From positions 1 to 64,000 of the IMG/VR virus record IMGVR_UViG_3300010403_000001: DNA of 64,000 nt; one strand, 5' to 3'. The position numbers and the translations under genes were made by a program. The notes under the pieces were generated by a model that saw nothing but the letters and a program-made list of their open reading frames with translations, made no database searches and was not told the origin of the DNA. Below are positions 1,240-41,062 of the stretch, one piece after another. Source of the stretch: a virus. Position 1 is the first letter of the stretch, and every line of letters begins with the position of its first letter.

Positions 1240-1805
1240 TATTTAACCCCTGCGGCTTTCAATTCTTCCTGGAACTTGCGTCCCTCTTCATCCAGGAAAT
1301 CGAGTCGCTCTCCCTGTAATTCCAGAAACATGGCTTCTGCGATGTAAGTCTCCCCTATTGGCATATCCCATATCATGGTCACTGGAAGATTAGCCCCACG
1401 GGCTGCACGATGTGCAACTACCACCACGGGCGGCGCTGGAGTGGTAGGCATTCCAACGTAACGCGGTCCTTTGAAATCCACCTGCTGGATCGTATACTCC
1501 GGACGATTCAAGTAGTCCCCTACGTATATCATAAAACGAGCTACAGCCCTCTCTAGTCCCTTTAGTGTCAGAAGGAGTGGGAATACTGGTCGCTTGACTC
1601 GGCTTTGCCGATACCGAAGGCAACAAATTCCAACTGCTGTCTTCAGATCAAAGAGCGTTATCTCTCCATTAGTTACAAATGGGGAGTCGATAGTCTGAAG
1701 TAACAGTAAGTGCCAGAGAGAGAATGGCTTGAGGGTTCGACCGAAGATCCTGTGTCGAATCTCGTTGTCGATATACGCCGCAGCAAATACACGATCCAGT
1801 GCCAC
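1239..1805 (-). CDS. Probable tail assembly chaperone
   Basis: 188 aa; lies between the tail tube-like gene and the tape measure. Confidence 0.5.
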   Translation of the reverse strand: MALDRVFAAAYIDNEIRHRIFGRTLKPFSLWHLLLLQTIDSPFVTNGEITLFDLKTAVGICCLRYRQSRVKRPVFPLLLTLKGLERAVARFMIYVGDYLNRPEYTIQQVDFKGPRYVGMPTTPAPPVVVVAHRAARGANLPVTMIWDMPIGETYIAEAMFLELQGERLDFLDEEGRKFQEELKAAGVK

Positions 1806-1833
1806 GGCTAATTCAGGGCTAATGTCAACCCTG

Positions 1834-2202
1834 TTAGCTTGTGATCAGTGCGTAACTTTCAGCTTCAAGAGTGACCTCGTTGAATTCACCCTTACGCTTC
1901 GGCTGACTGACATTCCTTACGATATAGAATCGTGTGAGGAATGTGAATGATGCTGAAATAGAAGCTGGGTCAAATCCGGTGATAATATATCCACCGAATG
2001 TGGCTGTGATTTTACGTTTATCAGGCTTGGTCGTAACCACCGACTCGGTTACGCCTTCACCATCCTGGGCTTGTGCAAAGGTTTCAGCTTCGTATCGAAG
2101 CTCAGCCGATCGAGCGACAAAACCAGTGATAGTCGGAGCATCCGAAGATGAGAATCCGAACAGATAACTTTGACCGAACTGATTGCTATTTACGAGTGGC
2201 AT
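1834..2202 (-). CDS. Probable tail tube / major tail protein
   Basis: 122 aa, beta-rich; upstream of chaperone and tape measure. Confidence 0.5.
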   Translation of the reverse strand: MPLVNSNQFGQSYLFGFSSSDAPTITGFVARSAELRYEAETFAQAQDGEGVTESVVTTKPDKRKITATFGGYIITGFDPASISASFTFLTRFYIVRNVSQPKRKGEFNEVTLEAESYALITS

Positions 2203-2208
2203 AATCTT

Positions 2209-2565
2209 TTATCCAGCTACGACCCATGCCTGGCATGGAGCCGTATCTGCCTTGGCGTAGACGGTTCCAGTTTCCGGCAATAGAAGAACACCTGCTCCAG
2301 GTGTGAGCTTCTGTGGGAATTTATCCAGTGTACCGACTGAATCGACGGTCAAAAAGTTCGTAGTGTCCAGATTGATCACCAGGAGTATGGAGGGATTCGT
2401 GAGTCCACCGACGTATAGTGTAGCAGCAGTGGTACTCCCAACCGTAACTTCCTCCCCAATAAATGTCGTTGAAGAAAGACTTGTGGTGAAACTTTTAGAA
2501 CCCGTTACGCTCTGACCACCCGAAGAAATCGTGCAGCTTACAGAGGAGTTGATCTCGTTTGCCAT
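2209..2565 (-). CDS. Virion structural protein, paralog of 2590..2946
   Basis: Shares MANEI...FIGxE...NLDTTNF...FPQKLxPGxGV.L.P..YAKA.TA.C..WVVA with its neighbour. Confidence 0.7.
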   Translation of the reverse strand: MANEINSSVSCTISSGGQSVTGSKSFTTSLSSTTFIGEEVTVGSTTAATLYVGGLTNPSILLVINLDTTNFLTVDSVGTLDKFPQKLTPGAGVLLLPETGTVYAKADTAPCQAWVVAG

Positions 2566-2589
2566 GTCACATTTAGTCTTGTCAACCGA

Positions 2590-2946
2590 TTACGCAGCGA
2601 CCACCCAGACACGACAGGATGCGGTATTTGCCTTGGCATAAATAGGCACAGCTTGTGGGAATAAAAACACCCCCTTGCCTGGCAGTATTTTCTGAGGGAA
2701 GTTCGCCATGCCACTATCATTGTCTACCTCAACGTAATTGGTAGTGTCCATATTCCGCACGAATAGGAATACTGGAGTCGAACCAATATCCCCGAGAAAG
2801 ATTGTTTCGGCCGCTGTGCCGATGAGCTGCTCGTTTCCAATGAACGCATTGTTGGAGGCATCGGAGGTTCCTGATATGGTTCCGGATGCCACCTGGCTGT
2901 TTATGGAGACGGATACGGTTATATTCGTTGTGATTTCGTTCGCCAT
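2590..2946 (-). CDS. Virion structural protein, paralog of 2209..2565
   Basis: 118 aa tandem paralog in the tail region. Confidence 0.7.
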   Translation of the reverse strand: MANEITTNITVSVSINSQVASGTISGTSDASNNAFIGNEQLIGTAAETIFLGDIGSTPVFLFVRNMDTTNYVEVDNDSGMANFPQKILPGKGVFLFPQAVPIYAKANTASCRVWVVAA

Positions 2947-2963
2947 TATCTACCAAATCAATA

Positions 2964-3941
2964 TCAACTCACAGAGGCTGATCCGCCGGCAATGATTTGA
3001 ACATCTGAGACACCCGTAGACCGAATGTAAAATGTTCCTGGCGTACTCGGTGTAAGATACACACCAGACTTGGGTGGTATCCTCTGCGGGAATTGATCAA
3101 AACTGGCAGATGAATCTACCTCTACGAATTCGACATCATCGAGATTGTTCACGAACACAATACTATTAGCTTCACTGACAGTGATTGTTATTGGGGTCGT
3201 GGACACCGATTCTTCGGTGGTGAAATAATTTCCTCTCCGTGCAAGGGTTATAACGCCACCACTGAGTTCCTGCAGGGCGGATTTTATCCTTACCCAGATC
3301 TCTGACCAAAACATCGACCATCCATTCAGTAATGTTCCATGAAAACTGAGAGTTGATGTCATGGTAACGAAGAAATTACCGAAGAGGTCGCTAACAAAAT
3401 CAGCAACAAATGATAATGCAGCCGTGACAGTTTTGTAGATCGCATTCGCTAGGTTTCCAGAAAACGATATTGCGGCCGTTAGAATCCTGTTAGCTGCGTA
3501 GGATGATAATAATGTCCCCACAGACGATAATGTCGCCAGCATTAATCGTGGCGATGATTTGGTGTTAGCGGCGTGGAAAGACAGGGTGCTGTAGAATTCA
3601 ATGATCCATGTCAGGATCAGTGCGAACAGGTATGCAAACGAAGTGGAGAACGATAATCTCGGGGCGGTACTATCCTCGAATGTTTTAATGTAAATGTTCC
3701 TGTAGACCGTTGCCCCAACATCCCAGACGATCGCCTGTATTGGCTGGAGTAATTTCGGATGTTCGAGACTCGATCCGCTATCTAGATTATCTTCCGCAGA
3801 ATTGGATTCGAAGAAATCATCGTACGGCTGTGGACCCGTGGCGGCATCGAAATTCGCGGCAGAAAACGGATCTTCTAAATTGTCATCTCCATAATCGGCA
3901 ATGACGTTGTAACCTGTAGACGCATCTATTAAAGCAGCCAT
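2964..3941 (-). CDS. Tail-associated protein with LSF-type repeats and a C-terminal domain paralogous to 2209/2590
   Basis: Repeats LSFSTSF/LSFHAAN/ISFSGNL/LSFVADF/LSFHGTL; C-terminal NLDDVEFVEVDSS..FPQRIPPKSGVYLTP. Confidence 0.55.
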   Translation of the reverse strand: MAALIDASTGYNVIADYGDDNLEDPFSAANFDAATGPQPYDDFFESNSAEDNLDSGSSLEHPKLLQPIQAIVWDVGATVYRNIYIKTFEDSTAPRLSFSTSFAYLFALILTWIIEFYSTLSFHAANTKSSPRLMLATLSSVGTLLSSYAANRILTAAISFSGNLANAIYKTVTAALSFVADFVSDLFGNFFVTMTSTLSFHGTLLNGWSMFWSEIWVRIKSALQELSGGVITLARRGNYFTTEESVSTTPITITVSEANSIVFVNNLDDVEFVEVDSSASFDQFPQRIPPKSGVYLTPSTPGTFYIRSTGVSDVQIIAGGSASVS

Positions 3942-5711: not shown

Positions 5712-5713
5712 AA

Positions 5714-6142
5714 TTAATCAAATTCTGTTACGCCCATGGTAAACGATATAGTGTCACCATGCGCTTGCCGGTCACTGTCACTGAATTCATCCATAGTGGA
5801 GATATCCAGTCCGTGAACAATAAGACTATGGATTGGATCAGCACCATTGGTGATGGTCAACATGGCATTATAGATCTGCTGAACCGTATCAGATTGATCT
5901 GCCACGTCATCCTTGGTCTCCCTGGATACCCAAACAACAGTCCCAGTGAGCATGTAAGTTCTTTCGTAGCCGATTGTTTTCTCGGCATTATCGATCCAGA
6001 TGGCACCGAATGGTGGACGGGGCAATGTTACCCCTCCGTCGTCGTCCCCGCCTTTGGATGGATAGAATGATAGATCCGGAAGAAGTTCTGCCAGTAATCC
6101 TACGAGGCAGAGCTCGGCTTTTCGTTTGACTTCAAAGGCCAT
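5714..6142 (-). CDS. Probable tail terminator / completion protein
   Basis: 142 aa acidic protein downstream of the head-closure gene. Confidence 0.45.
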   Translation of the reverse strand: MAFEVKRKAELCLVGLLAELLPDLSFYPSKGGDDDGGVTLPRPPFGAIWIDNAEKTIGYERTYMLTGTVVWVSRETKDDVADQSDTVQQIYNAMLTITNGADPIHSLIVHGLDISTMDEFSDSDRQAHGDTISFTMGVTEFD

Positions 6143-6233
6143 AGTTTCTCCAGTGTCTTTTGCCAGTCAGCTTCAGCTTGGTCTTTACGTTTTTCCAGTT
6201 CACGATCATGTAACAGGTCAGAAACCTTATTGA

Positions 6234-6563
6234 TCATTTCCACACATCGATCTGTGGGGAACTGCATATTAGAGTCCGACAATCGTCTCCCTCCTGTTCG
6301 ATAGTAAGCACCGTGAAATCCTGGCCACGGGCAGTGATGATATCATCCTGCGCAACCGCACTTAAATCAAACACTTCTTTCCTGACGTATATCGTGGTGT
6401 TTACATCCTGGTATACGCCACCCTTCATAACCCTCGTAGAATCCGACTCATGATCGATAGCGATCGCTGGATATGTAACCCCTTTAAATATCCAGTCTTC
6501 AGTAAACGCCGCTTCCATGGACGGTAATGCGCCATTGAAAGCGTCAAAAAACTCCGTAGCCAT
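6234..6563 (-). CDS. Head-tail joining (lambda FII-like) protein
   Basis: Beta-rich ~109 aa (DDIITARGQDFTVLTIEQEG); next minus-strand gene after the major capsid gene. Confidence 0.6.
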   Translation of the reverse strand: MATEFFDAFNGALPSMEAAFTEDWIFKGVTYPAIAIDHESDSTRVMKGGVYQDVNTTIYVRKEVFDLSAVAQDDIITARGQDFTVLTIEQEGDDCRTLICSSPQIDVWK

Positions 6564-6587
6564 CAAACAACAAACCAGATATCAACC

Positions 6588-6973: not shown

Positions 6974-6984
6974 GCTGTAAACAC

Positions 6985-7014
6985 AAAAGGGCCGCATCAT
7001 TACGGATGCGGCCC
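6985..7014 (-). terminator. Intrinsic terminator after the major capsid gene (possibly bidirectional)
   Basis: 10-bp stem GGGCCGCATC/GATGCGGCCC followed by TTTT on the minus strand; sits between convergent genes. Confidence 0.75.
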
Positions 7015-7043
7015 CCTCGTGTTTGTTCTGTGCCTAATTAGTA

Positions 7044-8021
7044 TTACGCGTATTGAGTCGTGATCAGCTGGACGCAGTTGGGAGATACTGTTTTCAGTAC
7101 TCGGTTGCTGCGGATACGGAGCATATTGCCCCGACGCTTTTCATCGCGGTAGCTTTCTGAGGTGAACAAGCCGCCTGGCGAATCTGCATCCCACACGATC
7201 GTGCGGCCGACTCCACCATTCATGAAGTCTCCTTCAGCCCTGCGGACCAGTGCGATATAAGTGTTTGGCCACACTGGAACCACCGTGGTGGTGGGTGTAG
7301 CTTTTTTAAGTGAGGTGTCGTAGGATTTCTTAGCAATCAAGATTTCCTGCAACCCGAACACATTGGCGAACATCTGCTCAGTGATCTGGCTGCCACCCTG
7401 GTTTACGTTCAAGTAACCGTAAACGTAGGTTTGGAGTTTCTGTGACCGGCGAATTCTGTTCCACAGCGACAAGCTCATGACTGCAGTCGTTGGGACTTCT
7501 CCCAGGAAGGTCATGCGCTCGATTGCCGCATTCATATCCAGTGGAACATCAAACGTGGCGATGTTGGCTTCCGTGTAGGCTACGGTTGAGTTGGTAGCCG
7601 TGAAGGTTGAGGAATTGTAAAGGGTCGTTGCAATCTCAAGCTCGTAATCCAACATCAGTGAGTTCATCAACAGCTTGGAGGTGATAACCTCAGCGTCGAA
7701 GAAACTTTCCATCCGGCGAGCTACGACATCATCAACGCGCTCTTCCAAACCGAACTCTTCGGTCTGGTAGCTGTCCCACTCGAATTTACGAGTGAGTTCG
7801 TTGTAGGTGCCGGTCTCATTTCGTTTGGTGGAGCCGTAGCCAGTTCCCGCTTTCAGGAGCTCTGCAGCACCGATACGGAATTTAGGATAACGACCTACTT
7901 CACGTCCACTGGGATAGGTTGGGTAAATCAGTTGTCCGATGTAGAGTTTTTCCTGGGCAACTGCTTCCATCAACACTGTGCTGATGTCTGCCCTTGGTAC
8001 ACTGTCAGTTGTATTAAACAT
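7044..8021 (-). CDS. Major capsid protein (HK97 fold, lambda E-like)
   Basis: 325 aa, follows protease/scaffold and decoration genes; segments YQTEEFGLEERVDD and ESYRDEKRRGNMLRIR resemble lambda-E-type capsid proteins. Confidence 0.85.
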   Translation of the reverse strand: MFNTTDSVPRADISTVLMEAVAQEKLYIGQLIYPTYPSGREVGRYPKFRIGAAELLKAGTGYGSTKRNETGTYNELTRKFEWDSYQTEEFGLEERVDDVVARRMESFFDAEVITSKLLMNSLMLDYELEIATTLYNSSTFTATNSTVAYTEANIATFDVPLDMNAAIERMTFLGEVPTTAVMSLSLWNRIRRSQKLQTYVYGYLNVNQGGSQITEQMFANVFGLQEILIAKKSYDTSLKKATPTTTVVPVWPNTYIALVRRAEGDFMNGGVGRTIVWDADSPGGLFTSESYRDEKRRGNMLRIRSNRVLKTVSPNCVQLITTQYA

Positions 8022-8039
8022 AAGCTCTGGGGGTATTTA

Positions 8040-8423: not shown

Positions 8424-8441
8424 TTGTTCTGGGGGGAATCA

Positions 8442-9230
8442 TTAGGCCGCCGTTGCCGGTTTGTTTTTCAGGGACTGAAGCCAGTCCGCGTGCATGGCGG
8501 GGTTTTCTTTCTGTGCAAGCAGGATAGCTTCACCCTCTGTTTTCCCGCTTGTTTTAAGCTGCTGGACCCGGACTTGAAATTCATGGAGCTGGCCATCGTC
8601 ATTAGCACTGAAGAGTCGCAGGCCGTTATCTACACCAGCCCTGACAGGGCGCGTGCCAGTCCTGTTAGCCAGGCGTAGAGCATCATTTTCTGCTTTGTAG
8701 CCCTCGGCCAGTTTAATGGCTTTGTCTCTCTGCTCTGCCAGGATCATAACTTTTTCCTCAATGGATTTAAGTTCGATCTCTTCTGCATCTCGTTTGGCCT
8801 GTAGCTCTTTGAGGGCTTGCTTATTTTTGAGTTGGATAACTTCCTTCTGTAGAGCGGCGAAGTTCGCAGCGCCACTGGTTCCACCTACGGCTTCACCTGC
8901 TACTCCTGCTACGACACCGGCAGGTTCACCTTGGACTTGAGCTTGTTCCTGGCCTTGGACTTGGGATTGCTCGCCTTCCATGCCGGCGAGAACTTCCTGG
9001 ACTGCGGCGTCGACTTCGGCGCGAGTAAGTCCAAGCTGGGCCAGATCTTCATCGCTTGCTTCCACGAGATCTTGCAATGAAGGCTCATTCTGCCCTCCAA
9101 AGTTCTCGTTCAAAACTTGTTCATGTTGCTCAATTCGTTCGTTGAGCTGATTAAGGGCGGCCATTACATCCTGTAGTGTTGGTTCAGGGTCTGCCACCTG
9201 TTCTTGTGCTTCCTGCTTTTCTTTGGCCAT
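8442..9230 (-). CDS. Nested in-frame scaffolding protein (internal start Met178, MAKEKQEAQ...)
   Basis: TTGACA-N14-ATG signature at 9250..9228, at the protease/coiled-coil boundary. Confidence 0.6.
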   Translation of the reverse strand: MAKEKQEAQEQVADPEPTLQDVMAALNQLNERIEQHEQVLNENFGGQNEPSLQDLVEASDEDLAQLGLTRAEVDAAVQEVLAGMEGEQSQVQGQEQAQVQGEPAGVVAGVAGEAVGGTSGAANFAALQKEVIQLKNKQALKELQAKRDAEEIELKSIEEKVMILAEQRDKAIKLAEGYKAENDALRLANRTGTRPVRAGVDNGLRLFSANDDGQLHEFQVRVQQLKTSGKTEGEAILLAQKENPAMHADWLQSLKNKPATAA

Positions 9231-9761
9231 GCCAATTTGAGAACTGTCAACTTCAGGGACAGAGAAAAGACCGGCATTAGCAGCAGGACGGATTACACAA
9301 TCAACAGACATAAGTTTCTCACATCTCGCAGCAAACTTACCATTGCCCAATGGCTCACCATTCATATTCCCTTTGGGTGGCTTGAACGCTGTAGACATAC
9401 CGAAACAGGTAGGCATCACTTCAGCACGCTCAAGGAGCTTGGGAGTTTCGTCGTGGCTTTTCAGGAGATGCCAGTCAGCACGCAGTTTGTCTCCGTCTCT
9501 TCGGAAACCAGTCAGGTAACCATTGAGGTCTTTGACTCCGCTACCATGATCCAGGCATACGGCCACTTTCCCGCGTTCTTTTGCTGATGCCTGGATTTGG
9601 TTTAGGAGCGTATCATCAACTTCCAGGTTGTGACCTTCAGCGGTCAATCCACCAGTGATAACACTGACTCCACGGATTACGGCATTTTGACGATCGATCG
9701 TTCCGGTTGTTCCGGTAAAAAGATCCTCACTTTTAAAACAGATTTCACTTTCGTTCGGCAT
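8442..9761 (-). CDS. Prohead protease fused to scaffolding domain
   Basis: N-terminal protease-like motifs (CLDHG, FGMST, SVDCVIRPAAN); C-terminal Q/E/A-rich coiled coil; position upstream of decoration and capsid genes. Confidence 0.8.
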   Translation of the reverse strand: MPNESEICFKSEDLFTGTTGTIDRQNAVIRGVSVITGGLTAEGHNLEVDDTLLNQIQASAKERGKVAVCLDHGSGVKDLNGYLTGFRRDGDKLRADWHLLKSHDETPKLLERAEVMPTCFGMSTAFKPPKGNMNGEPLGNGKFAARCEKLMSVDCVIRPAANAGLFSVPEVDSSQIGMAKEKQEAQEQVADPEPTLQDVMAALNQLNERIEQHEQVLNENFGGQNEPSLQDLVEASDEDLAQLGLTRAEVDAAVQEVLAGMEGEQSQVQGQEQAQVQGEPAGVVAGVAGEAVGGTSGAANFAALQKEVIQLKNKQALKELQAKRDAEEIELKSIEEKVMILAEQRDKAIKLAEGYKAENDALRLANRTGTRPVRAGVDNGLRLFSANDDGQLHEFQVRVQQLKTSGKTEGEAILLAQKENPAMHADWLQSLKNKPATAA

Positions 9762-9783
9762 GCTGCATGCCAGATTGTCAACG

Positions 9784-20500: not shown

Positions 20501-21765
20501 GGGAAACCGGTTGCAGCTTCTGCTATCGGAGTTGTGAAAATCTTTCGTTCTTTCAAAATCTTCTGCTTAACCCCACTAAGTCCTGCAAACTTGCTGCGCT
20601 CGTACGTTGTATCCATGTGCCGCTTCAATTTCCGGATACGTCCAGGCGTAATTGGTTTGGTGGTTCTGCTGCCTTTTTGTAAAATATCCTGAATGCTGCT
20701 GACGCTAACCTCAGATAGCGGTGTGCCGCCATATTCATATGGTTTATCAGTGATTAATCCCATAGCTCCACGAGCCTGGGTTTTAATGTCTTCCGGACTT
20801 TTCCGAATCAGGAAATGCTGATGGATTTGTTTTTGGACTTCATGCTCTTCCTCTGGAGAGGCAGCAGATTTGAGTTGCTTATGTAATTTAGAAAGTTTGG
20901 ATTGCCAATCTCCCTGGTGTTCTTCAGCTATTTGGGTCATTCCTCTTGTGGCGATCCGGCTTAAACGTTCACCGGCATGAGTCCTGGCGGCCGTGGATGC
21001 CTCTTGTCGTTGTTTGGCGAGGCCCGATAGCCGCTTCTTGTATTCAACCATCCGTTCAGGATGAGCTCTGGCAGATTCAAGGCTGGCATTTTTGGCTCTG
21101 ATTATAGCCAGGCTTTCCCTTGCTTCCCCTGCCATGTAATCACGATGTAGCTTCATCTGACCCTGAATATGCTGCACTGTCTTTGAGCGTAATTCTCTGG
21201 GTCCAACCCTTTCTCCAGCATATTGCTCCTGAACTTCTTGCCTATGTCTCCCCCACACTTCACTTGTGGGAATTTTCTCTATCTCCGATTGGGCTCGAAC
21301 GTACTTCTTCCAATTCATCCGCTGCCGCTCGTAGACAGGAACGTCTTTAAATGTCTCGCCGGGCTTTATATCGGCTTCTTTAACCGTAGCCCACTGTTTA
21401 CCCTTGGGGGCGGAATATGGTTGAGCTTGCCCAGCAGCGAGAGGCCTTAACGCCTTAAGACGGGTCGCAGGTTTACCGAGTGGTTCTCCAGCTACCGGTT
21501 CCTTGAACCCACCTTCTACCTTCTGCCATCGGACAGGACGCCCAATGGTGTAGACCTGTTCAGGGTCCATCTTTTGGGATACTGCTTCTTTAATCTTTCG
21601 ACCGCTTACTGAAATGTTGTATTTGCTTTCCGGGGCATAAGCTGTGTGGCGTTCGCCGGCAGCGAATTTGATTTCGACGTTCAGCTTCCTGGCCAATCGC
21701 TTCAAAGCTGCAAGCGGGCGCACTTTACCTTCTGCGCGAGGCACTGATTCTGTGGTGTTGAACAC
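17518..21765 (-). CDS. Large basic polyprotein (1415 aa), probable internal head / ejection protein
   Basis: N-terminus mimics the capsid N-terminus; about 7 xxF junction motifs; several Gly/Ala-rich hydrophobic helices; lies between portal and protease. Confidence 0.65.
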   Translation of the reverse strand: MFNTTESVPRAEGKVRPLAALKRLARKLNVEIKFAAGERHTAYAPESKYNISVSGRKIKEAVSQKMDPEQVYTIGRPVRWQKVEGGFKEPVAGEPLGKPATRLKALRPLAAGQAQPYSAPKGKQWATVKEADIKPGETFKDVPVYERQRMNWKKYVRAQSEIEKIPTSEVWGRHRQEVQEQYAGERVGPRELRSKTVQHIQGQMKLHRDYMAGEARESLAIIRAKNASLESARAHPERMVEYKKRLSGLAKQRQEASTAARTHAGERLSRIATRGMTQIAEEHQGDWQSKLSKLHKQLKSAASPEEEHEVQKQIHQHFLIRKSPEDIKTQARGAMGLITDKPYEYGGTPLSEVSVSSIQDILQKGSRTTKPITPGRIRKLKRHMDTTYERSKFAGLSGVKQKILKERKIFTTPIAEAATGFPHLGKLGIGIGAAGVLAGGALAIHAARKRSRTQQMKSRLKEIQFAKFPIPREAQEALEVFRQAGKTGVSKSTTAIPGTWLESEKLAGKKAKPFSTFQIARQKWTKFIRAAGGSKVQDIKPMDMRALRALQETHTKNLGVIKTLREQAKTREHLGEEALKAQAEKLGAEHAAKHGEAFKKGHTLGREEGVTAAKSTYERQTGELTERLGQESARRAGRLKLIAAGTLAGGAVGGYALGRYDKRAHQRHEAREILNLYKPRQPKPREPREQRATITIGITPHNGRRQNVQFSALDKVRAQLAGTTQDHTAHDIAIGAIEGGLAYPASELLFKKFAPKGSGIGRKIAVGGLVGGAATGLVGLTLAQLKKRRKQQMSSRQRLIQFGLKSDLAVAGGVAALPLIYEKIYTHRKNKRRKREEMEAEQKGLLPESQLTQFQSQRQIVARDRYMKQIHERDIDRADRLYGHTTLIGAGIGALAARKPSKLIKSTLAGAGIGLATQKAARLYGKTTRDQFGERSWRGKRVELAPEVIGGTILAGYGLKKLAKHAFLSRIKLVKFDVRPDDPDDLGPDWLQEWAHKKLYGRTYSTIGQAQKVKKYAGRTHRLLRDVNLKRQGLPNIDPRGRPRKNEWEKPWVAGALTTAGLIATIKGGRGVINWAKQAHPQSRIGQLMEGFKRGSYAKDVPGLGKVGGFFHGAREELSRWRDKPLTTPPKYEHSKFNPVTGKMKTPAQIEKEVGEAKEKDFFKKVAQGKISKEELSSRLEEIRFQEPKRKHNVAAGLAVAAAGIPLYRGAGKFARIGLRSRIDKLAGNPTNYGKQVADYLEASQHILNQGITGKLTGSALRHPESAPVKWLIGKSPKIWDVGSPKSGIHPHVLEHYSAFRHSPASALDSWHKEAVSEWRGRKNPEVVKELKKGQKVLSAHLQDLRFRGYNEREALREATKEPLHSNYFRRLIAYKGNPVKNYQKVTTGLAAVPATAGAAVAATTRKDRNRVSVR

Positions 21766-21957
21766 GCCTCACCTAGGCATGTCAATCTGCCACCAAAAAT
21801 GAAAAATAACGGGATGTTCCCAAAACGAGGCTAAAAGAAAAAAATAGTATAAGAAAATCCTCGATTCAGAATGTCTGGCGATACTGTGTATTTTTAATGG
21901 AGTACACCAATCGCTGGTCAGCAAACCAACGAGAGTCGCAGACTCCATTCTGCAAAC

Positions 21958-23351: not shown

Positions 23352-23405
23352 TAGCGTAGAGGGTCCGGAAAAGGGTTAATATTACCCCTTTTCCGGACTA
23401 CGCTA
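23352..23405. promoter_or_regulatory. Operator-like palindrome, extended copy 2
   Basis: TAGCGTAG-AGG-GTCCGGAAAAGGGTTAATATTACCCCTTTTCCGGAC-TACGCTA. Confidence 0.65.
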
Positions 23406-24763: not shown

Positions 24764-24979
24764 TCAATCCTGAAAGCTCGGCACTTCATAAACCCGCTTG
24801 CTTCCATCAGGATATGTAATCAATCCCTCACCATTGCTGCGGGTAAGGGTGGTCCAGGTCATTTGGACCAATGGATGCCAGTGGCGCTGTTCCCAGAAGA
24901 ACTTCTGCCTGTCAGGCGAGAGGGTTTCGAGTTTGCTGAGGTTTTTAAGGTATTGCTCGGTGAACGAGACGATACTCAT
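24764..24979 (-). CDS. Small protein coupled to the portal gene
   Basis: ATGA overlap with the portal stop codon. Confidence 0.5.
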   Translation of the reverse strand: MSIVSFTEQYLKNLSKLETLSPDRQKFFWEQRHWHPLVQMTWTTLTRSNGEGLITYPDGSKRVYEVPSFQD

Positions 24980-26811
24980 TTACGTGCTGGTTTCTTCTTA
25001 GATACGGATTTCGATTTTGCTCCGGACGGCCGGCTGCCGTTTCCTGGTGCTGCTGGTTTGGGATGTAGGGCTTTGATGATTCCGAGATCTGGTTCTGGGA
25101 CCATTTGTTCGGCCATGGCTTCAGGGATTCCGAACACTTTCTTTAATGTATTCTTAGCGCTGTCTGGGTCAAGTTTACCATCACCGACAGCCTTCAAGAT
25201 ATCGACAAGTTGCTTCACGCCCTTGTCACCGATTGCTTCAATTGTCCCGGGTTTCGGTGGTGGCACTGGTCCTGTGACCATTGCAGCCTTCTGTGTGGTG
25301 ATGTCCGGATACAGCATTCTGGCGAATACCTCCACCGGTACGTCGGTCTCCGCTCCGATCTGAATTGCTTCATTGGCAGTGGTTGCATTGGAAAGGAACA
25401 CCTCACGTGGGCTCTTGCCGTATTTCCCGGTTATGTCACTGACTGGAATAAGCCCGGCGCTTACGGCTGCGATATCGGCATCCATCTCATAACCCACATC
25501 GGTTTGGATGGATAGACCGAAATGCCATTCGCATTTTCTCCAAAGAGGATGCGGAGGAAGGACACCCAGAGCAATGCCTTGAGCGATTACCTTTTGGCGG
25601 ATACGGTTTAACACCTTATGCTCAAGTAGCTGCTGCCAGTATTCGATCCTCCGCAAAGCTTGCTGAACTTCAATACGGGCAGTCACTCCACCCAGGGTTG
25701 CTAGATCCCATAGGAACCCAAATGGTAAATCCAATGACACTGCCATTTTACGAATCAGGATTTGGACAAACTCCATGAATGCACCACTGGGACGAGCAGG
25801 CGGAGCAAGCATGTTGAAGACTTCGCCTTCTGCCATCCTCATGATCTTTCCCCATTCGGCCGGTTGGGTTGGTGTTCCATCTGCAGTCTTGTCCTTCCAA
25901 GCAGTAGCACCTTGGTTAGCAAATGGATCTTTGATCCCAATCAGTGCGGCCCATTGACTCTGGGTTTTGCCGGCAATCTTTTCCGATTCAATCCATTCCC
26001 TGATGTCCCTTGCGTCATTTAGTAAGCGGAGTAGTTTGGTTCGTCCGCGATATTCATCAGGGCGTTCAGGATCATGAAGGTGGATAAATGAACCAAACTC
26101 AATCTCTTGAGGCTTCAAGTACTGATTCGTTCGAGTTCTTTGAAAAATTCTATAGAACTGAATTCGACCGGTTTCTGGATCGAGCCCTACGCCTCCCACG
26201 TAATTCTCCTGAACGAGCTGCTCTAACGGTGATCCTATGCGATCTGCTTCAACAGCTTGTACACAAAACTCGCCAGTTGGAGAAAGCTCAGGAGCAATTT
26301 CAATCCAGCCATGATCCCCATCAATCAGGAAGCCCATAAATCCCATCTGGACCATCTTGAGCCATCGGCTGCGACCACTGAGATCGCAACGAACTGAACC
26401 ATCGTCATTGGGTTCATCTCCGCACCATCCGTGATAGAATGAATCGTATGCGTCGTCTATTTGCTCATCTCCAGTAAGAGATCGTGAATGGATCTTACCG
26501 CATACATACAGGGCGATCCTGGCCATCATTCCGCCAATGAATTCGAACTTTACCAGATCCCTGGCATCCCACATCGCTTTGAGACGGTCGCGGTTACTGC
26601 GCCAGGTTTCAGCAGATGCCTGAGCGAATAAACCGCCACTACCGCTTCGGCGTTCAGGGTTATCGTTGTATCCGTATGAGAATTGATGCTCGATCGTTCG
26701 AGCTTTCATCCGGACCAGTTTCTGGACTGGATCAAAGAATCCAATGACCTTGTCCCAGGCAGTAAGGCGTTGATCTGGCCTTTTGCCGTCCTCTAATTTC
26801 TTCAGATCCAT
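24976..26811 (-). CDS. Portal protein, lambda family
   Basis: 611 aa; QAVEADRI, GGVGLDPETGRIQFYRI, HLHDPERPDEYRGRT; follows a gpW-like gene. Confidence 0.9.
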   Translation of the reverse strand: MDLKKLEDGKRPDQRLTAWDKVIGFFDPVQKLVRMKARTIEHQFSYGYNDNPERRSGSGGLFAQASAETWRSNRDRLKAMWDARDLVKFEFIGGMMARIALYVCGKIHSRSLTGDEQIDDAYDSFYHGWCGDEPNDDGSVRCDLSGRSRWLKMVQMGFMGFLIDGDHGWIEIAPELSPTGEFCVQAVEADRIGSPLEQLVQENYVGGVGLDPETGRIQFYRIFQRTRTNQYLKPQEIEFGSFIHLHDPERPDEYRGRTKLLRLLNDARDIREWIESEKIAGKTQSQWAALIGIKDPFANQGATAWKDKTADGTPTQPAEWGKIMRMAEGEVFNMLAPPARPSGAFMEFVQILIRKMAVSLDLPFGFLWDLATLGGVTARIEVQQALRRIEYWQQLLEHKVLNRIRQKVIAQGIALGVLPPHPLWRKCEWHFGLSIQTDVGYEMDADIAAVSAGLIPVSDITGKYGKSPREVFLSNATTANEAIQIGAETDVPVEVFARMLYPDITTQKAAMVTGPVPPPKPGTIEAIGDKGVKQLVDILKAVGDGKLDPDSAKNTLKKVFGIPEAMAEQMVPEPDLGIIKALHPKPAAPGNGSRPSGAKSKSVSKKKPARK

Positions 26812-27107
26812 TAGTAGGTCAGCTGGTCAGTAGTTCCTGCAGGTTGCCCTTGCTGAATACCTGCACCCTGACTAAAGTCAGTCAAAATTGTTCCCTCGTA
26901 TGGAGTAGTGCGTTCATTGAGAACAAATACTACAGCGCTTAATTGCGAGGAAAGCTCCCGCAGATCGCGGGTGTATGATTTTCCGCCAACCGTCTGGCTG
27001 GTGAATGTTCCGAGCGCAAGAATAGATGCCTTGAGCTTATCACGCAAAGCTTGCAATTCTTCCGTCGTGTAGCTACGAAAGACAAGAAGCCAATTACCAT
27101 CCGCCAT
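26811..27107 (-). CDS. Head completion / adaptor (gpW-like)
   Basis: SQTVGGKSYTRDLRELSSQL, directly upstream of the portal. Confidence 0.7.
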   Translation of the reverse strand: MADGNWLLVFRSYTTEELQALRDKLKASILALGTFTSQTVGGKSYTRDLRELSSQLSAVVFVLNERTTPYEGTILTDFSQGAGIQQGQPAGTTDQLTY

Positions 27108-27318
27108 TTAAATTTACCAAAATGTCAACGAAACAGAAAGGATACCAACCATGAAGATAAAGCAGTTCTGGGCGAAGATTCGGTCAGTGCTGCGCAGAAA
27201 GCAGAAGAAGGAGCGAATCGGTATGAGATTTCCTCTCGATCGATTCCTCAAACTGAAAACAGACAGAGAAACCAGACAGAGAAAGTGAATAAACAAACCA
27301 ACTGAAAGGAAATACACA

Positions 27319-28959: not shown

Positions 28960-28978
28960 AATAAAAAGGAAACCAAAA

Positions 28979-30487: not shown

Positions 30488-30544
30488 GGCTGGTTGATAT
30501 CATGGGCAATCAAGGGCAGATTGCCTACACTGAAAGGGTAAACT

Positions 30545-34476: not shown

Positions 34477-34753
34477 TGGTTTGATAGTATCCTATGATTT
34501 GGTCGAGTACATGGTTTCTGACTGCTCTGATATGTCGGCATCGAAAGTGATCGTAATTTGCCTTAACTTTTTTCCAGTCCGGGTAACGTCGGAAGGTAAA
34601 ATCCTCACAGTTGCAATTTCCAAGCCCTTTATTTGCAACGAGGTCAATTGAGTAATGAATGGCCGGGCGGCTCCTGGACTGGCACATATAATGACCTCTC
34701 CCGACTCTTGTAATCTTATGGCCACAAAGTGTTCTTTCTTTTACGTCAGGCGT
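34454..34753 (-). CDS. SWIM zinc-finger protein (proposed ACG start)
   Basis: CNCEDF...CRHI; GGAGG lies 6 nt upstream of the in-frame ACG at 34753. Confidence 0.65.
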   Translation of the reverse strand, partial: TPDVKERTLCGHKITRVGRGHYMCQSRSRPAIHYSIDLVANKGLGNCNCEDFTFRRYPDWKKVKANYDHFRCRHIRAVRNHVLDQIIGYYQTNEDVGST

Positions 34754-35306
34754 AGTTTGCCTCCAGTTTGATGTTTGCTCCCTGTGACATGCCGGCGGCA
34801 CGCACCAGGGTTTCGAATGCTTCAATGAAATTTGGGTCGGAGATGTGGAATTCCAGATATTTCTCGATCGTCAGACTGATCGTCATACTGGTTTCTCCGG
34901 TTTCACGTAATGAATACGAACCGTACGAACGTAATGTAGAGCCCAGCATCTCTGCAACAAAATTCTCAATCTTTTTTCGGTCCCAGGACTTCTCAAACTT
35001 CACCGGCACTGGCCGGCGGTTCCGGATCGGTTGATCCGGCTCCAGAAGGCGGACGGAATACGAGTATCCGCACAGGGTTAATCCCGCATACCAGAAAATA
35101 GTCTGGATTGCCCAGATTGTCCTCCCTAACTTTCCAATGAAACGCCCCTGATCGTGTGGGTCTACTGCCAGGAGAAATAAAGCAGAGTTTGGCAGGTGAT
35201 TTATCTCGGGATTGGGCGTCTTCTTAGCAATAACCGAAACGATGTGCTCCAGCAATGAGCGTAACTGCAAATATTGCGCAGGTTCGCGCTCTTGTACTGC
35301 GATCAT
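34746..35306 (-). CDS. KH-domain (KhpA-like) RNA-binding protein
   Basis: LAVDPHDQGRFIGKLGRTIWAIQTI with the GxxG loop. Confidence 0.75.
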   Translation of the reverse strand: MIAVQEREPAQYLQLRSLLEHIVSVIAKKTPNPEINHLPNSALFLLAVDPHDQGRFIGKLGRTIWAIQTIFWYAGLTLCGYSYSVRLLEPDQPIRNRRPVPVKFEKSWDRKKIENFVAEMLGSTLRSYGSYSLRETGETSMTISLTIEKYLEFHISDPNFIEAFETLVRAAGMSQGANIKLEANYA

Positions 35307-35351
35307 TTCGGTTCGGGTCGGTAACCAAACCTGAATGTCAATAACACTACA

Positions 35352-36149: not shown

Positions 36150-36372
36150 AGAAGACGAAGAAGAAGAAACCACCATTACCAATGCACATAAGTTTCCGTA
36201 ACCATAAAGGAGACACAATCCATATTCCGGCTAGTTCCACAATCGAGGATTTGCTCGGTATGGGTATCAAGGAAATCAGGCTGGAGAGAAAGGGATCTTT
36301 CCTGCCTGATGGCTGGTATAAGAACAATTTCCCCTCAGAACATAAAACAAACAAAACACATAGAAAGGCAAA

Positions 36373-37272: not shown

Positions 37273-37324
37273 TCCTGTTCCTCCCAGAACAACTAAACAA
37301 CGAACAACGAACAACAAACAACCA

Positions 37325-37989: not shown

Positions 37990-37992
37990 AAC

Positions 37993-38349: not shown

Positions 38350-38568
38350 CATCAGGACCTGGTGGAGCTGGGTATGACTTCCCGGTAGGGAAAATCCCTT
38401 ACAAGTTCGCAAAGGGTAACTGGATGCAAGTAAACAAAGGAACTTACAAGCTTAAATGCTTACATCCAGATGGGAGATCGGATACCTATCTAGTGGGACC
38501 AGGTCAGAGAATAGTGGCTGACGAGGAGGCCACATTTGAGATCCTGGAGCGATATCCAGATGAGGTGC

Positions 38569-40410
38569 CTATGCCGCAACCTCAATCTTCTCCTCCGGAA
38601 CCGAAATCAGTCCCAGCTGAATTGCCCGTATAACCTGGAATTCCTCGCAATCGAGCAAGTGGTCGTCCTGATGCAGTTCTTTCCAGATCTGCTCCCAGCG
38701 ACCAGTACGCTTGCTCTGAACGGCCACCTTCATCCGGCTAGTCATATGTCTCTGGTATTTATCAGAGACATCGATCGAGATATGCCAGATTGGTGGTTGA
38801 TGGAACCTGAGGGAAGAAATTAGGTCCATGGCACCGTTGACCGAAAACTTAATGTACCGGACCCGGTCAAGTGTCCTGGACTCCCAAGCCGTTCCCAAAT
38901 GTGGATCTCGGAGTTGCACTGTCGAGAAAATCCTCTCGATCCGAGTCCCATTTGGGAAACGGTGCCAGAAACTTTTTGTATCACTGCCCCAGATTCCACG
39001 CCAGCCGTGCTCCAGGATAAGCCGGCCGGTCTGGTTCGGTCTGTGAGCAAGGTCGACCAGGACATTCTCTCCGTCGATCTTGTTCTCCTTTTGCAGTTGT
39101 TCCAGATGTTCGACAGATTCGACCTTATCTGCGAATAGCAACCAGCTTTCGCCATTAGGTCGCTCTTTGGAAGGGGCCATCCAACGCCGTACTACGGCCC
39201 AGAAATGGTTTTCTTGAACGTCTATGGTCAAGATAGCCACGGAAGCCTCCGGCACGTCCTGGAGGCGATATGGCTCTGGCCTGATGTCCTCCTGATCGAA
39301 CATCCTTTCTGAATCCCATGTCTCAGCGAGCCATGAATTGATGAAATTCTGGCGTCCAGACAGGATTCCCTTGGCCTTGATCCATTGAGCGGCAATTGCA
39401 CCCAGTGAGGTCTTCCGCCCAAGGATCGAATAGAGGCTTGAGAGGTGATATCCATAATCACCAGCCTCTGCCAGAGTGTTGGTGGCATTCCAGACTCCAG
39501 CGTTTATTATGGATGGACGCTCGAAATCCTGGATCTCGCCGCCACACTCCTGGCAGCGGTAATATGCTTGCTGGGATACCTTATTTAAATCCCACTCCCC
39601 GTCAGTTTTAGCCTCGACGTCACTTTCCCTCCACCACCGTAGTCCACATAATCCGTGGGCTTCGGTTTTAACCCTAAACTTGAGCGTAATGCTCTTAGAA
39701 CACCTCGGACATGGAACCCAAAAATAACGTTGATCAGACTTCAGAAACGCAGGCCAAATCATCCGCTCCGCAGTCGTCGGAGTGGATGCTTTTACAACAA
39801 GCGGGAACGGAAACGTTTTTGTGCGTTCCTCGGCTAGATCCAAAGCAGCCGCTTCGTACTTTGACTGATCTCCGTATTTATCGCATTCGTCCATCACCAA
39901 GATTCCGCATGGAAATGAGGCTAAGTTTGCTGGACTGTTTGAACCGACGAATTTCAAAAACATCGTCAGAAAATGCTGCTCCATGAATGCGAACAGATGG
40001 CGATCGATCTCGTTCTTTGTAGTGCGGGGCAGTAGGCTCCGTGCATATTCACAGGCCTGAACAAATTTCATCCATCGGGCTTTACTGAAGGAATTAGCTA
40101 ATTCCCGGTTTGGGAAAACCCACATCGTATCCTGGGCGTCCCGAACCAATCGGTAAAGCATACCAATGATGGTGAGAGTGGTTTTCGCGGACTGTGACGC
40201 GAAACAGAGGGTCAGACTCTTCGTCCGACGATCCCCGAAGCGTTCGAGGATCTCCCGACCATATGGAGTCATCTTTAGGTTTAGCCGGCCTCGTATGGCT
40301 CCGGTCGGGACCTCTACATTCTTTTCAGCCCAGCTGCATACGGATTCCTTAGTCGGCGGCTTTAAGATCCGGAACAGGAAACTCCGGAATAGCGCTTGTG
40401 TGTCAGGCAT
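38569..40410 (-). CDS. Terminase large subunit (lambda gpA family)
   Basis: TPYGREI, ASQSAKT, MDECDKY, KASTPT, SDQRYFWVPCPRC, GYHLSSLYS, TIDVQ, DHLLDCE. Confidence 0.95.
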   Translation of the reverse strand: MPDTQALFRSFLFRILKPPTKESVCSWAEKNVEVPTGAIRGRLNLKMTPYGREILERFGDRRTKSLTLCFASQSAKTTLTIIGMLYRLVRDAQDTMWVFPNRELANSFSKARWMKFVQACEYARSLLPRTTKNEIDRHLFAFMEQHFLTMFLKFVGSNSPANLASFPCGILVMDECDKYGDQSKYEAAALDLAEERTKTFPFPLVVKASTPTTAERMIWPAFLKSDQRYFWVPCPRCSKSITLKFRVKTEAHGLCGLRWWRESDVEAKTDGEWDLNKVSQQAYYRCQECGGEIQDFERPSIINAGVWNATNTLAEAGDYGYHLSSLYSILGRKTSLGAIAAQWIKAKGILSGRQNFINSWLAETWDSERMFDQEDIRPEPYRLQDVPEASVAILTIDVQENHFWAVVRRWMAPSKERPNGESWLLFADKVESVEHLEQLQKENKIDGENVLVDLAHRPNQTGRLILEHGWRGIWGSDTKSFWHRFPNGTRIERIFSTVQLRDPHLGTAWESRTLDRVRYIKFSVNGAMDLISSLRFHQPPIWHISIDVSDKYQRHMTSRMKVAVQSKRTGRWEQIWKELHQDDHLLDCEEFQVIRAIQLGLISVPEEKIEVAA

Positions 40411-41024
40411 CAGGCAAATGCCTTCTGGGCATCCTCAATGATGGCTGCACATTCTTGCTCCAGGATATCCAGTGCCCAGGCTGGATCTGTAGGGTTGAGT
40501 TTAGCGCTTATGTTCTGAGGAAGAGCGTTAAGTCGTTGAAGGATAATCTCGTATCCCTTCCTGGCTTCAGCCTGGGCTTCGGTTAATGGGATCAGTACCT
40601 TCTGCCTCTCTTGTTCCTCACGGATCATGGATTCGGCTTTCACATTGGCTTCGACCGATCGTGTGTAAAGCGAAAGCCATGCACCGATCTTTTGTGCTTT
40701 CCCCTCAACCAATGCTTCTCGTAAAAGTCTCCAGGCTTGCCGAACAGCTTCTTTGGAACCGAGTAGCATATCATCCCCGATGTCCTCAAGGATATGACCA
40801 TTTGGTCCTGTTTTGGCAGGTCGTGAATCATCACTGTAATCCCGGGAACCGGGTGGACCTGAATGACTCGAACGCTGTCGACGGGCTTCGCGCCACATCC
40901 TGGCGTGCTCCAGGGAATCTGTTGGGCAGCCCTTCTTTACCTGGGTGTGGACGTACTGAGGCGTGCAGCCCCAGTCACGAGCGATATCGGACTTCTTGAC
41001 CATTCGGGTAGGTTCGGATACCAA
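40410..41024 (-). CDS. Terminase small subunit
   Basis: N-terminal HTH (KSDIARDWGCTPQYVH..KKGCP); coupled to the large subunit. Confidence 0.8.
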   Translation of the reverse strand: MVSEPTRMVKKSDIARDWGCTPQYVHTQVKKGCPTDSLEHARMWREARRQRSSHSGPPGSRDYSDDSRPAKTGPNGHILEDIGDDMLLGSKEAVRQAWRLLREALVEGKAQKIGAWLSLYTRSVEANVKAESMIREEQERQKVLIPLTEAQAEARKGYEIILQRLNALPQNISAKLNPTDPAWALDILEQECAAIIEDAQKAFA

Positions 41025-41062
41025 GATAGTAAATTGTCAATACAACAACAAGAAAGGAAACT

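What the first reader, a model, noticed from the sequence alone, without database searches (positions are those of the whole stretch)
1803..41040. TTGACA-N14-17-start codon signature marks late genes (possible leaderless late promoter)
Seen on the minus strand: TTGACA (twice TTGATA) sits at a near-fixed distance from the start codon. Motif position and spacer length are 1828 (17 nt), 2585 (14), 2967 (15), 6585 (16), 9250 (14), 9781 (14), 12075 (14), 17070 (16), 21785 (14) and 27128 (15), with two longer-spaced cases at 35341 and 41040. These starts have no clear SD and no TATAAT. A canonical sigma70 -35 box this close would place transcription start inside the ORF. Inference: a phage-specific late promoter producing leaderless or near-leaderless mRNA, or a translation-initiation element. 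The HTH protein 55899..56597 is one candidate reader.
Basis: partly seen in the sequence, partly recalled or inferred. Interest (0 to 1): 0.8.

Follow-up and report, generated by a model that had tools for sequence, protein, structure and literature searches.

The report
Compact TTGACA promoter box at start codons
In this uncultured 80-kb phage and its relatives, the exact word TTGACA sits 14-17 bases before the start codons of many structural genes, most likely as a compact promoter whose messages begin at or next to the start codon, a layout that fits no described promoter or ribosome-binding site.

Summary
All 12 coordinates and spacers check out. Ten of the 19 TTGACA in the 79.7-kb phage genome (8 of 15 in the window) lie 14-17 nt before an ATG/GTG that opens a long ORF (p about 1e-11). 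The layout recurs in four fully fetched relatives, down to 47% capsid identity. The spacer sequence is free and 14 nt is the commonest length.

The sites look like promoters, not RNA signals:
- Consensus is R-TTGACA-N8-T/A-N4-Y|A(TG); the base before the ATG is a pyrimidine in 35 of 36 N14 sites.
- The hexamer is depleted about 4-fold inside genes on both strands.
- It directly follows capsid-gene terminators.
- It occurs back-to-back (TGTCAA-N7-TTGACA) in a 48-nt divergent region.
- It precedes a conserved internal start in the protease/scaffold gene.
- The capsid gene, which also lacks an SD, never carries it.

Conserved N-termini and nearby in-frame stops show the start codons are genuine, so TTGACA cannot be a canonical -35 box here.

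Best reading (about 0.6): a compact late promoter with the transcription start about 15 nt after the box, giving leaderless or near-leaderless mRNA. The factor that reads it is unknown. No sigma factor or RNA polymerase gene was found, and the proposed HTH protein remains only a candidate. No RNA data exist. Earlier notes of this scan report the same box in Verrucomicrobia prophages; I did not verify that.

The parts
1803..1828 (-). TTGACA (1828-1823), 17-nt spacer, GTG 1805-1803; ORF 1239-1805 (188 aa, conserved in all four relatives)
2563..2585 (-). TTGACA (2585-2580), 14-nt spacer, ATG 2565; ORF 2209-2565 (118 aa). C at -1, T at spacer position 9
2944..2967 (-). TTGATA variant (2967-2962, contains the upstream gene's TGA stop), 15-nt spacer, ATG 2946; ORF 2590-2946, tandem paralogue of 2209-2565
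6561..6585 (-). TTGATA variant (6585-6580), 16-nt spacer, ATG 6563; ORF 6234-6563. The orthologous site in relative L005 is TTGACA-N17
9228..9250 (-). TTGACA (9250-9245) inside the 439-aa protease/scaffold ORF, 14-nt spacer, in-frame internal ATG 9230, giving a nested 262-aa product. Conserved at the same place in G001, G004, L007, L010 and L013
9759..9781 (-). TTGACA (9781-9776), 14-nt spacer, ATG 9761; ORF 8442-9761 (439 aa). Heads the scaffold, 127-aa and capsid gene unit, which ends at the terminator 7014-6989
9861..9889 (+). Plus-strand TTGACA (9861-9866), 20-nt spacer, ATG 9887; lone 62-aa plus-strand ORF 9887-10075. T at spacer position 9, T-A at positions 15/16
12053..12075 (-). TTGACA (12075-12070), 14-nt spacer, ATG 12055; ORF 11207-12055 (282 aa), first gene of a minus-strand block
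17046..17070 (-). TTGACA (17070-17065), 16-nt spacer, ATG 17048; ORF 16458-17048, followed by the ligase-domain gene 14495-16456
21763..21785 (-). TTGACA (21785-21780), 14-nt spacer holding an in-frame TGA, GTG 21765; 1415-aa ORF 17518-21765. GTG start and box are conserved in G001
27105..27128 (-). TTGACA (27128-27123), 15-nt spacer, ATG 27107; 98-aa ORF 26811-27107 directly upstream of the portal gene. The box is kept in L001, L003, G001, G002 and G003 while the spacer diverges
35304..35341 (-). Long-spaced site: TTGACA (35341-35336), T at spacer position 9, 29 nt to ATG 35306; predicted short leader holding CCGACCCGAACCGAA. First gene of the block 34746-35306
41001..41040 (-). Long-spaced site: TTGACA (41040-41035), T at spacer position 9, 31 nt to ATG 41003 (small terminase subunit, 40410-41003); leader holds TCCGAACC...CCCGA. 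TerS orthologues carry TTGACA at N19-N50
6989..7014 (-). Intrinsic-terminator hairpin after the capsid gene (7044-8021). In relatives G001, G002 and G004 the equivalent hairpin is followed within 3-7 nt by TTGACA-N14-start codon (ATG or GTG)
55899..56597 (-). Conserved in G001, G003 and distantly G004
55192..55902 (-). 236-aa protein overlapping the previous gene by 4 nt. The AlphaFold model (pLDDT 84) weakly resembles ParB/Noc/KorB-type DNA-binding domains. Second untested candidate

Best explanation
TTGACA is the main recognition element of a compact promoter used for the structural (presumably late) genes of this phage clade. The consensus is R-TTGACA, 8 free bases, T/A, then about 5 more bases to a pyrimidine-purine step where transcription most likely starts, about 15-16 nt after the box.

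In the commonest layout (spacer 14-15) that purine is the A or G of the start codon. The mRNA is then leaderless, or has a 1-3 nt leader with spacers of 16-17, and needs no Shine-Dalgarno sequence. Downstream cistrons are read through stop/start overlaps or through short G-poor leaders. In a minority of units (small terminase subunit, the 186-aa gene) the same box sits 19-50 nt from the ATG and would give a short leader.

Shown here: the enrichment, geometry, conservation, strand-symmetric avoidance and gene context. Inferred: that the box acts on DNA, where transcription starts, and who reads it.
For: 1. Enrichment. 10 of 19 TTGACA in the genome sit at N14-17 before ORF starts, p 8e-12.

2. 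Clade-wide conservation. TTGACA-N14-17-ATG occurs 12+1, 8, 5 and 9+1 times in four fully fetched relatives. The reversed-word control gives 3, 0, 0 and 0. There are 53 sites in five genomes and 103 non-redundant sites with further loci. Spacer counts are 14 (36 sites), 15 (17), 17 (13) and 16 (10). The box is invariant at orthologous genes while spacer sequence and length drift.

3. Promoter-like logo. There is a purine before the box in 93 of 103 sites and T/A at spacer position 9 in 82 of 103. That T/A is fixed relative to the box, not to the ATG, also in N15-17 and long-spaced sites. In N14 sites a pyrimidine precedes the ATG in 35 of 36, against 48% in other genes. In sites with spacers of 18-35, A is enriched at spacer position 16 (15 of 24), independent of the ATG.

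4. Avoidance on both strands. Inside genes TTGACA occurs 18 times in sense and 15 in antisense. One-mismatch neighbours average 62 and 68.

5. Context. Strong terminator hairpins after the capsid gene are followed within 3-7 nt by the box in G001, G002 and G004. A conserved 136-aa gene on the opposite strand, inside a run of same-strand genes, has its own box in a 47-48-nt divergent region, CAT-N14/15-TGTCAA-N7-TTGACA-N14-ATG, in G001 and L006. A box also lies inside the protease/scaffold ORF before a conserved in-frame internal start.

6. Not needed for SD-less translation. The capsid gene has neither SD nor box in eight of eight relatives examined. Genes on the motif-bearing (presumed late) strand in general have SD-like words at chance level.

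7. Genuine start codons. N-termini are conserved from residue 2, and in-frame stops lie 1-3 codons upstream in several cases.

8. Precedent. Leaderless late transcripts from phage-specific promoters are reported for Thermus phages Lalka27a and YS40 (bioRxiv 10.64898/2026.04.20.719267, read).
Against: - No RNA 5' end has been mapped, so every step from sequence to transcription start is inference.
- No known RNA polymerase holoenzyme uses a recognition element at -20..-15 without a -10 hexamer.
- No sigma70 region 2 or 4 domain, T7-type polymerase or two-barrel DxDGD motif was detected in five genomes.
- Several spacers contain SD-like words at plausible distances (for example GGAGG 7 nt before the ATG in G001). 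These would be useless in a leaderless transcript, although their frequency is at chance level.
- About 11% of the starts are GTG, which leaderless translation tolerates in some bacteria but not in E. coli.
- Boxes before three consecutive small genes (1805, 2565, 2946) are dense for promoters.
- The both-strand depletion could partly reflect avoidance of host sigma-A -35 words or of a restriction site.
Confidence: 0.6

Rival explanations
1. RNA-level translation-initiation element. UUGACA in the mRNA, 14-17 nt before the AUG, is bound by a phage or host factor (or the ribosome) and replaces the Shine-Dalgarno sequence for late genes. This would resemble the position of the T7 gene 10 'epsilon' enhancer or the start-associated sequences of Cluster K mycobacteriophages.
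For: The distance to the start codon is fixed, SD is absent, and many boxes sit in tight junctions within same-strand gene strings (gap to the upstream stop of 0-5 nt, or the stop inside the box). Some spacers carry SD-like words, which implies the spacer is at least sometimes transcribed. Cluster K SAS are a precedent for start-linked repeats proposed to act in translation (PMC3203893).
Against: - The hexamer is avoided equally on the antisense strand of genes.
- The pyrimidine at -1 and the T/A fixed relative to the box are transcription-start features, not known translation features.
- The box sits directly after terminators and in a 48-nt divergent region that leaves no room for another promoter upstream.
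- The most abundant SD-less late protein, the capsid protein, never uses it.
- I could recall no 16S rRNA segment complementary to the box (from memory, not tested here).
- There is no tendency to present the box in a hairpin loop.
Confidence: 0.15
2. Operator or activator site rather than core promoter. TTGACA is the binding site of a phage late regulator that switches these genes on or off, for example the HTH protein 55899-56597 or the ParB-like protein 55192-55902. The actual promoter elements and transcription start would lie elsewhere.
For: Two conserved DNA-binding-type proteins of unknown role are encoded side by side. The exact six-base conservation is typical of a protein-DNA contact. 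The purine before the box extends the site to 7 bp.
Against: No other conserved element exists within 40 nt upstream or within the spacer. The sequence upstream of the box is often a terminator hairpin or another gene's coding end. The fixed distance to the start codon is not explained by a regulator site alone.
Confidence: 0.15
3. Canonical host sigma-A -35 element. Transcription starts about 29 nt downstream and the real start codons lie further inside the ORFs.
For: TTGACA is the textbook -35 consensus.
Against: No -10-like hexamer lies 16-18 nt downstream; positions +4 to +12 show only codon-type bias, and canonical promoter matches are at shuffle level. N-terminal residues encoded right after the ATG/GTG are conserved among orthologues. 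In-frame stops lie 1-3 codons upstream, for example in the 98-aa and 1415-aa genes.
Confidence: 0.02

Closest known systems
Leaderless late promoters of Thermus phages (Lalka27a, phiYS40)
   Same: A phage-specific promoter class drives late genes, and the transcript begins at the A or G of the start codon with no Shine-Dalgarno leader (bioRxiv 10.64898/2026.04.20.719267). The promoters are dense in the structural region and presumably read by host polymerase modified by a phage factor.
   Different: There the defining element is a -10 hexamer (TAGGGT, plus a conserved C at -25) at the normal distance from the start. Here there is no -10 hexamer. The only strong element is TTGACA at -20..-15, plus a single T/A at about -6. 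The host is unknown and no RNA data exist.
Canonical sigma70/sigma-A promoter (-35 TTGACA, 17-nt spacer, -10 TATAAT)
   Same: The hexamer is identical to the -35 consensus, and a purine start follows a pyrimidine.
   Different: The box is about 15 nt, not about 29 nt, from the inferred start, and there is no -10 element. Used canonically it would start transcription inside genuine coding sequence.
Start-associated sequences (SAS) of Cluster K mycobacteriophages
   Same: An asymmetric short repeat in one orientation lies at a near-fixed distance before many start codons of one part of a phage genome. It prefers ATG, sometimes overlaps the upstream stop codon, and its reader is unknown (PMC3203893).
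   Different: SAS is a 13-bp word (GGGATAGGAGCCC) lying 3-7 bp from the start. It contains the SD core, marks non-structural genes and is proposed to act in translation. The TTGACA box lies 14-17 nt away, has no SD content, marks structural genes and shows promoter-type features.
T4-type late promoters (TATAAATA read by gp55/gp33 with the sliding clamp)
   Same: A single short element without a -35/-10 pair occurs many times in front of late genes, including inside upstream coding sequence.
   Different: The word is different, and in T4 it sits at -13..-6 with SD-containing leaders of variable length. No gp55-like gene was identified here, and this was not searched specifically.

Membership tests
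Canonical sigma70/sigma-A promoter | -35 hexamer close to TTGACA | tested here: met
   Exact TTGACA at all sites
Canonical sigma70/sigma-A promoter | -10 hexamer (TAnnnT) 16-18 bp downstream of the -35 hexamer | tested here: not met
   Logos show no such element; those positions fall in codons 2-4 and show only codon bias. Consensus scan is at shuffle level
Canonical sigma70/sigma-A promoter | Transcription start about 29 nt after the -35 hexamer, upstream of the coding sequence | tested here: not met
   That point lies 12-15 nt inside ORFs whose N-termini are conserved and bounded by in-frame stops
Leaderless promoters (Thermus phages, Deinococcus-Thermus, Actinobacteria type) | Start codon at the transcript 5' end, no SD | tested here: inconclusive
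   SD is at chance level and a Y-R step sits at the ATG in 35 of 36 N14 sites. No 5' ends have been mapped
Leaderless promoters (Thermus phages, Deinococcus-Thermus, Actinobacteria type) | -10 element TAnnnT ending 6-7 nt before the start codon | tested here: not met
   Only a single T/A at about -6; the position matching A(-11) is not conserved
Start-associated sequences (Cluster K mycobacteriophages) | 13-bp GGGATAGGAGCCC-like word 3-7 bp before the start, containing the SD core | tested here: not met
   Different word, 14-17 nt away, no SD content (definition from PMC3203893)
Phage single-subunit (T7-like) polymerase promoters | Phage-encoded T7-type RNA polymerase and a conserved promoter of about 20 bp spanning -17 to +6 | tested here: inconclusive
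   No PF00940 match in five genomes, but the control genomes also gave none, so the search is weak. Only 7 of about 21 positions are conserved
Phage-encoded sigma factor systems | Gene with sigma70 region 2 and/or region 4 | tested here: not met
   No PF04542 or PF08281 match at E<=1 in five genomes, with controls positive. Very divergent factors such as T4 gp55 would escape this test

The most novel reading that the evidence does not exclude
A previously undescribed bacterial promoter geometry. The host's own -35 word is read at -20..-15, either by sigma-A region 4 repositioned by a phage factor or by a new phage initiation factor. DNA opening is nucleated at a single T/A about 6 nt before the start, with no -10 hexamer. 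The design is wired so that the transcript begins at the start codon. A whole clade of soil or rhizosphere phages, possibly of Verrucomicrobia, would then run its late genes on SD-free leaderless mRNAs.
Probability: 0.3. Interest if true: 0.85.

Novelty: new variant of a known kind. Interest (0 to 1): 0.7.

Why it matters
If the box is a promoter, it shows that transcription can be started about 15 bp after a -35-type word with no -10 hexamer. No characterised holoenzyme or phage factor explains this, so it points to an unknown way of redirecting or replacing sigma. It would also link promoter geometry directly to translation, because the message begins at the AUG, for a whole temporal class of genes. 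That would extend the leaderless strategy known from Thermus phages to another phage lineage. On the practical side, the box gives a simple rule for calling true start codons, including a nested internal start in the protease/scaffold gene, and transcription units in these uncultured phages.

Tried and rejected
- Hairpin presentation of the box. Stems flanking TTGACA are no more frequent than in shuffled pairings (p 0.98).
- Palindrome or hairpin around the ATG (GGC-ATG-GCC). Not significant (p 0.25-0.36).
- Sigma54-type -24/-12 reading. No GG at the required distance, by inspection of the flanks.
- Bacteroidetes-type -33/-7 promoter and archaeal TATA/BRE geometry. The distances do not fit (by reasoning, from memory of those consensus sequences).
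- Second motif CCCCCAGAAC before the capsid and 127-aa genes. It is not conserved in relatives.
- Phage polymerase or sigma. PF04542, PF08281 and PF00940 gave no hits. A DxDGD scan found only one unconserved hit.
None of the three tRNA genes in the five genomes has a box upstream.
- Host identification failed. There are no close cultured phages. Two genome-contig scans, with capsid and heptosyltransferase profiles, found nothing.
- Transcript-like contig ends. One metagenome scan with the first 29 nt of the nested scaffold ORF gave two contigs, both running through the site.
- Candidate readers. The 232-aa protein has no PDB sequence or fold match of note. The 236-aa protein only weakly resembles ParB/Noc/KorB DNA-binding domains.

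Full report
**What the window is.** The window is bases 1-64000 of a 79,711-nt IMG/VR phage record with 123-nt direct terminal repeats. Recognisable genes include:
- major head protein (7044-8021)
- portal (24976-26811)
- large and small terminase subunits (38569-40410, 40410-41024)
- a ligase-domain protein (14495-16456)
- helicase, Toprim primase and RecT in a separate minus-strand block

No cultured phage is close.

**The observation.** The window has 15 TTGACA, 13 on the minus strand, against 43.8 expected from dinucleotide shuffles. Relative to its own pentamers the word is not specially rare, but that count includes the functional copies.

In the whole genome, 10 of 19 copies are followed after 14-17 nt by an ATG or GTG opening an ORF of at least 60 codons. 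The average rate over all hexamers is 2.5%, giving a binomial p of 8e-12. TTGACA ranks first of all hexamers at that offset before called genes. Two more such sites lie beyond the window (65611, 73317), and one plus-strand copy (9861) precedes a lone 62-aa plus-strand ORF at N20.

The two TTGATA sites are not significant alone. One of them (6585) is orthologous to a TTGACA-N17 site in relative L005.

**Conservation.** Capsid-protein searches found relatives down to 40% identity. Four were fetched whole (G001-G004).
- The pattern TTGACA-N14-17-ATG occurs 12+1, 8, 5 and 9+1 times in them. The word read backwards gives 1+2, 0, 0 and 0.
- Five genomes give 53 sites. With further loci there are 103 non-redundant sites, with spacers of 14 (36 sites), 15 (17), 17 (13) and 16 (10).
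- At orthologous genes the six bases are invariant while spacer sequence and even length change. Examples are the 98-aa gene before the portal, the 1415-aa gene with its conserved GTG start, and both starts of the protease/scaffold gene.
- In one subgroup (59% capsid identity) exact TTGACA sites are sparse. A few TTGACG/C/T variants at N16 were seen by eye.

**The start codons are genuine.** Orthologous N-termini are conserved from residue 2. Examples are MADG..LL..YRS in the 98-aa proteins and VFNTTESVPRAEGK against VFDTSNPVPRTEGK in the large protein. In-frame stops lie 1-3 codons upstream in several cases.

A canonical -35 role would start RNA 12-15 nt inside these ORFs. Together with the lack of any -10 hexamer at the right distance, that role is excluded.

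**Anatomy of the site.** Aligned on the box:
- The base before it is a purine in 93 of 103 sites.
- Spacer position 9 is T or A in 82 of 103 sites (T 50). This holds for spacers of 15-17 and for the long-spaced terminase and 186-aa sites (4 T and 1 A of 5), so it is fixed relative to the box, not to the ATG.
- In the N14 class the base before the ATG is a pyrimidine in 35 of 36 sites, usually preceded by G-G. Other genes show 48% pyrimidine there.
- In sites with spacers of 18-35 nt, A is enriched at spacer position 16 (15 of 24) irrespective of the ATG.

A pyrimidine-purine step is the usual signature of transcription starts; it is reported as universal in PMC4782308. The simplest reading is a start about 15-16 nt after the box. 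That coincides with the start codon in the N14/15 class.

**DNA level or RNA level.** Five results favour action on DNA.
1. Inside genes the word is about four times rarer than its one-mismatch neighbours on both strands. The counts are 18 sense and 15 antisense, against means of 62 and 68.
2. In G001, G002 and G004 the strong hairpin that ends the capsid gene is followed within 3-7 nt by the box and, 14 nt on, by the next start codon. Nothing upstream of the box can be required.
3. A conserved 136-aa gene on the opposite strand (37.5% identity between G001 and L006, E 2e-26) has its own box. The whole divergent region is CAT-N14/15-TGTCAA-N7-TTGACA-N14-ATG, 47-48 nt long.
4. A box inside the protease/scaffold ORF precedes a conserved in-frame start. 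An internal promoter would raise scaffold and capsid messages relative to protease.
5. SD-less translation does not need the box. The capsid gene has neither in eight of eight relatives examined. Same-strand genes in general carry SD-like words at chance level (18% against 15% random), whereas opposite-strand genes do use them (34%).

**Against, or unresolved.**
- No 5' end has been mapped.
- No sigma region 2 or 4 domain, T7-type polymerase or two-barrel signature was found.
- Some spacers carry SD-like words, although at chance frequency.
- About 11% of the starts are GTG.
- Three consecutive small genes each carry a box.
- Hairpin presentation of the box and a palindrome at the ATG were tested and rejected.

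**Who reads it.** There are 64 database homologues, and it is present in G001, G003 and distantly in G004; G002 is incomplete. The model is all-helical with an HTH-like C-terminal part, but no informative sequence or fold match was found.

Its overlapping neighbour (55192-55902) gives a better model that weakly resembles ParB/Noc/KorB DNA-binding domains. Both remain untested candidates. Neither looks like a sigma factor.

**Comparison with known systems.** The closest functional analogues are the leaderless late promoters of Thermus phages. These have a phage-specific -10 hexamer and transcripts that start at the initiator codon (bioRxiv 10.64898/2026.04.20.719267). The present sites lack a -10 hexamer and instead carry the -35 word at -20..-15.

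Cluster K mycobacteriophage start-associated sequences share the start-linked, one-orientation layout. They contain the SD core, sit 3-7 bp from the start and are proposed to act in translation (PMC3203893).

T4-type late promoters share the single-element design but not the word, the distance or the leaders.

**Earlier notes of this scan.** One search shows that the same TTGACA-N13-16 box was noted and followed up in Verrucomicrobia prophages and related viral contigs. A related 'short-spacer' design was noted in another temperate phage. I could not reach those genomes and did not verify host or kinship.

One lead from those notes, a box before a tRNA gene, was tested here and not found. Akkermansia, a Verrucomicrobia member, is reported to have about 10% leaderless transcription starts with ordinary -35/-10 logos (PMC4782308).

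**Verdict.** The feature is real, conserved and non-canonical. It is most likely a compact late promoter giving leaderless or near-leaderless mRNAs (about 0.6). The rivals are an RNA-level initiation element (0.15) and a regulator site (0.15).

Noticed in passing
window 23373-23388, 49099-49114, 62934-62949 (and weaker 6019-6034): A 16-bp palindrome GGGGTAATATTACCCC, flanked by A/T runs, recurs in intergenic regions (4 matches at up to 2 mismatches against 0.01 expected). It may be a bidirectional terminator or an operator; a related half-copy (AATATTACCCCTTTT) was seen by eye upstream of 10324.
   Followed up: partly
window 12515-12526, 13053-13064, 41049-41060, 48385-48396 (variants 41581, 41841, 42766): Plus-strand (presumably early) genes share an A-rich leader word CAAGAAAGGAAA 3-14 nt before the ATG (7 matches against 0.56 expected). 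Their second codon is usually AAA/AAG. Box-bearing genes instead lack SD and mostly start ATGGC or ATGCC. The two gene sets therefore seem to use different translation-start contexts.
   Followed up: partly
window 35306-35335 and 41003-41034; G001 and G003 orthologues: The long-spaced TTGACA sites before the small terminase subunit gene and the 186-aa gene share a leader word (T)CCGA(T/C/A)CCGAAC, starting about 15-20 nt after the box. This could be a conserved short 5' leader of a separately regulated unit.
   Followed up: partly
window 8024-8039 and 8426-8441: The capsid gene and the preceding 127-aa gene follow 18-nt gaps holding CCCCCAGA(A/G)C. Similar words occur at 36332 and 37281 on the plus strand. 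The word is not conserved in relatives, where capsid leaders are simply C/A-rich and G-poor.
   Followed up: yes
window 9784-9858: A long-range inverted repeat (GGTGGGGAGGAGCC ... GGCTCCCCCCACC, about 45-nt loop) lies between the outward-facing boxes at 9781 (minus strand) and 9861 (plus strand).
   Followed up: no
window 55192-55902: The AlphaFold model (pLDDT 84) of this conserved 236-aa protein weakly matches ParB/Noc/SopB/KorB DNA-binding domains (Foldseek probability 0.98-1.0, E 0.03-0.2). A separate ParB-like nuclease-type protein is encoded at 59941-60816.
   Followed up: partly
window 2209-2565 and 2590-2946: Two adjacent 118-aa genes both start MANEI and look like tandem paralogues. 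One has TTGACA and the other TTGATA at the same relative place.
   Followed up: no
window 21730-21765 and 7986-8021: The 1415-aa protein begins (V)FNTTESVPRAEGK, like the capsid protein's MFNT... start. The G001 orthologue keeps this (VFDTSNPVPRTEGK) together with the GTG start.
   Followed up: partly
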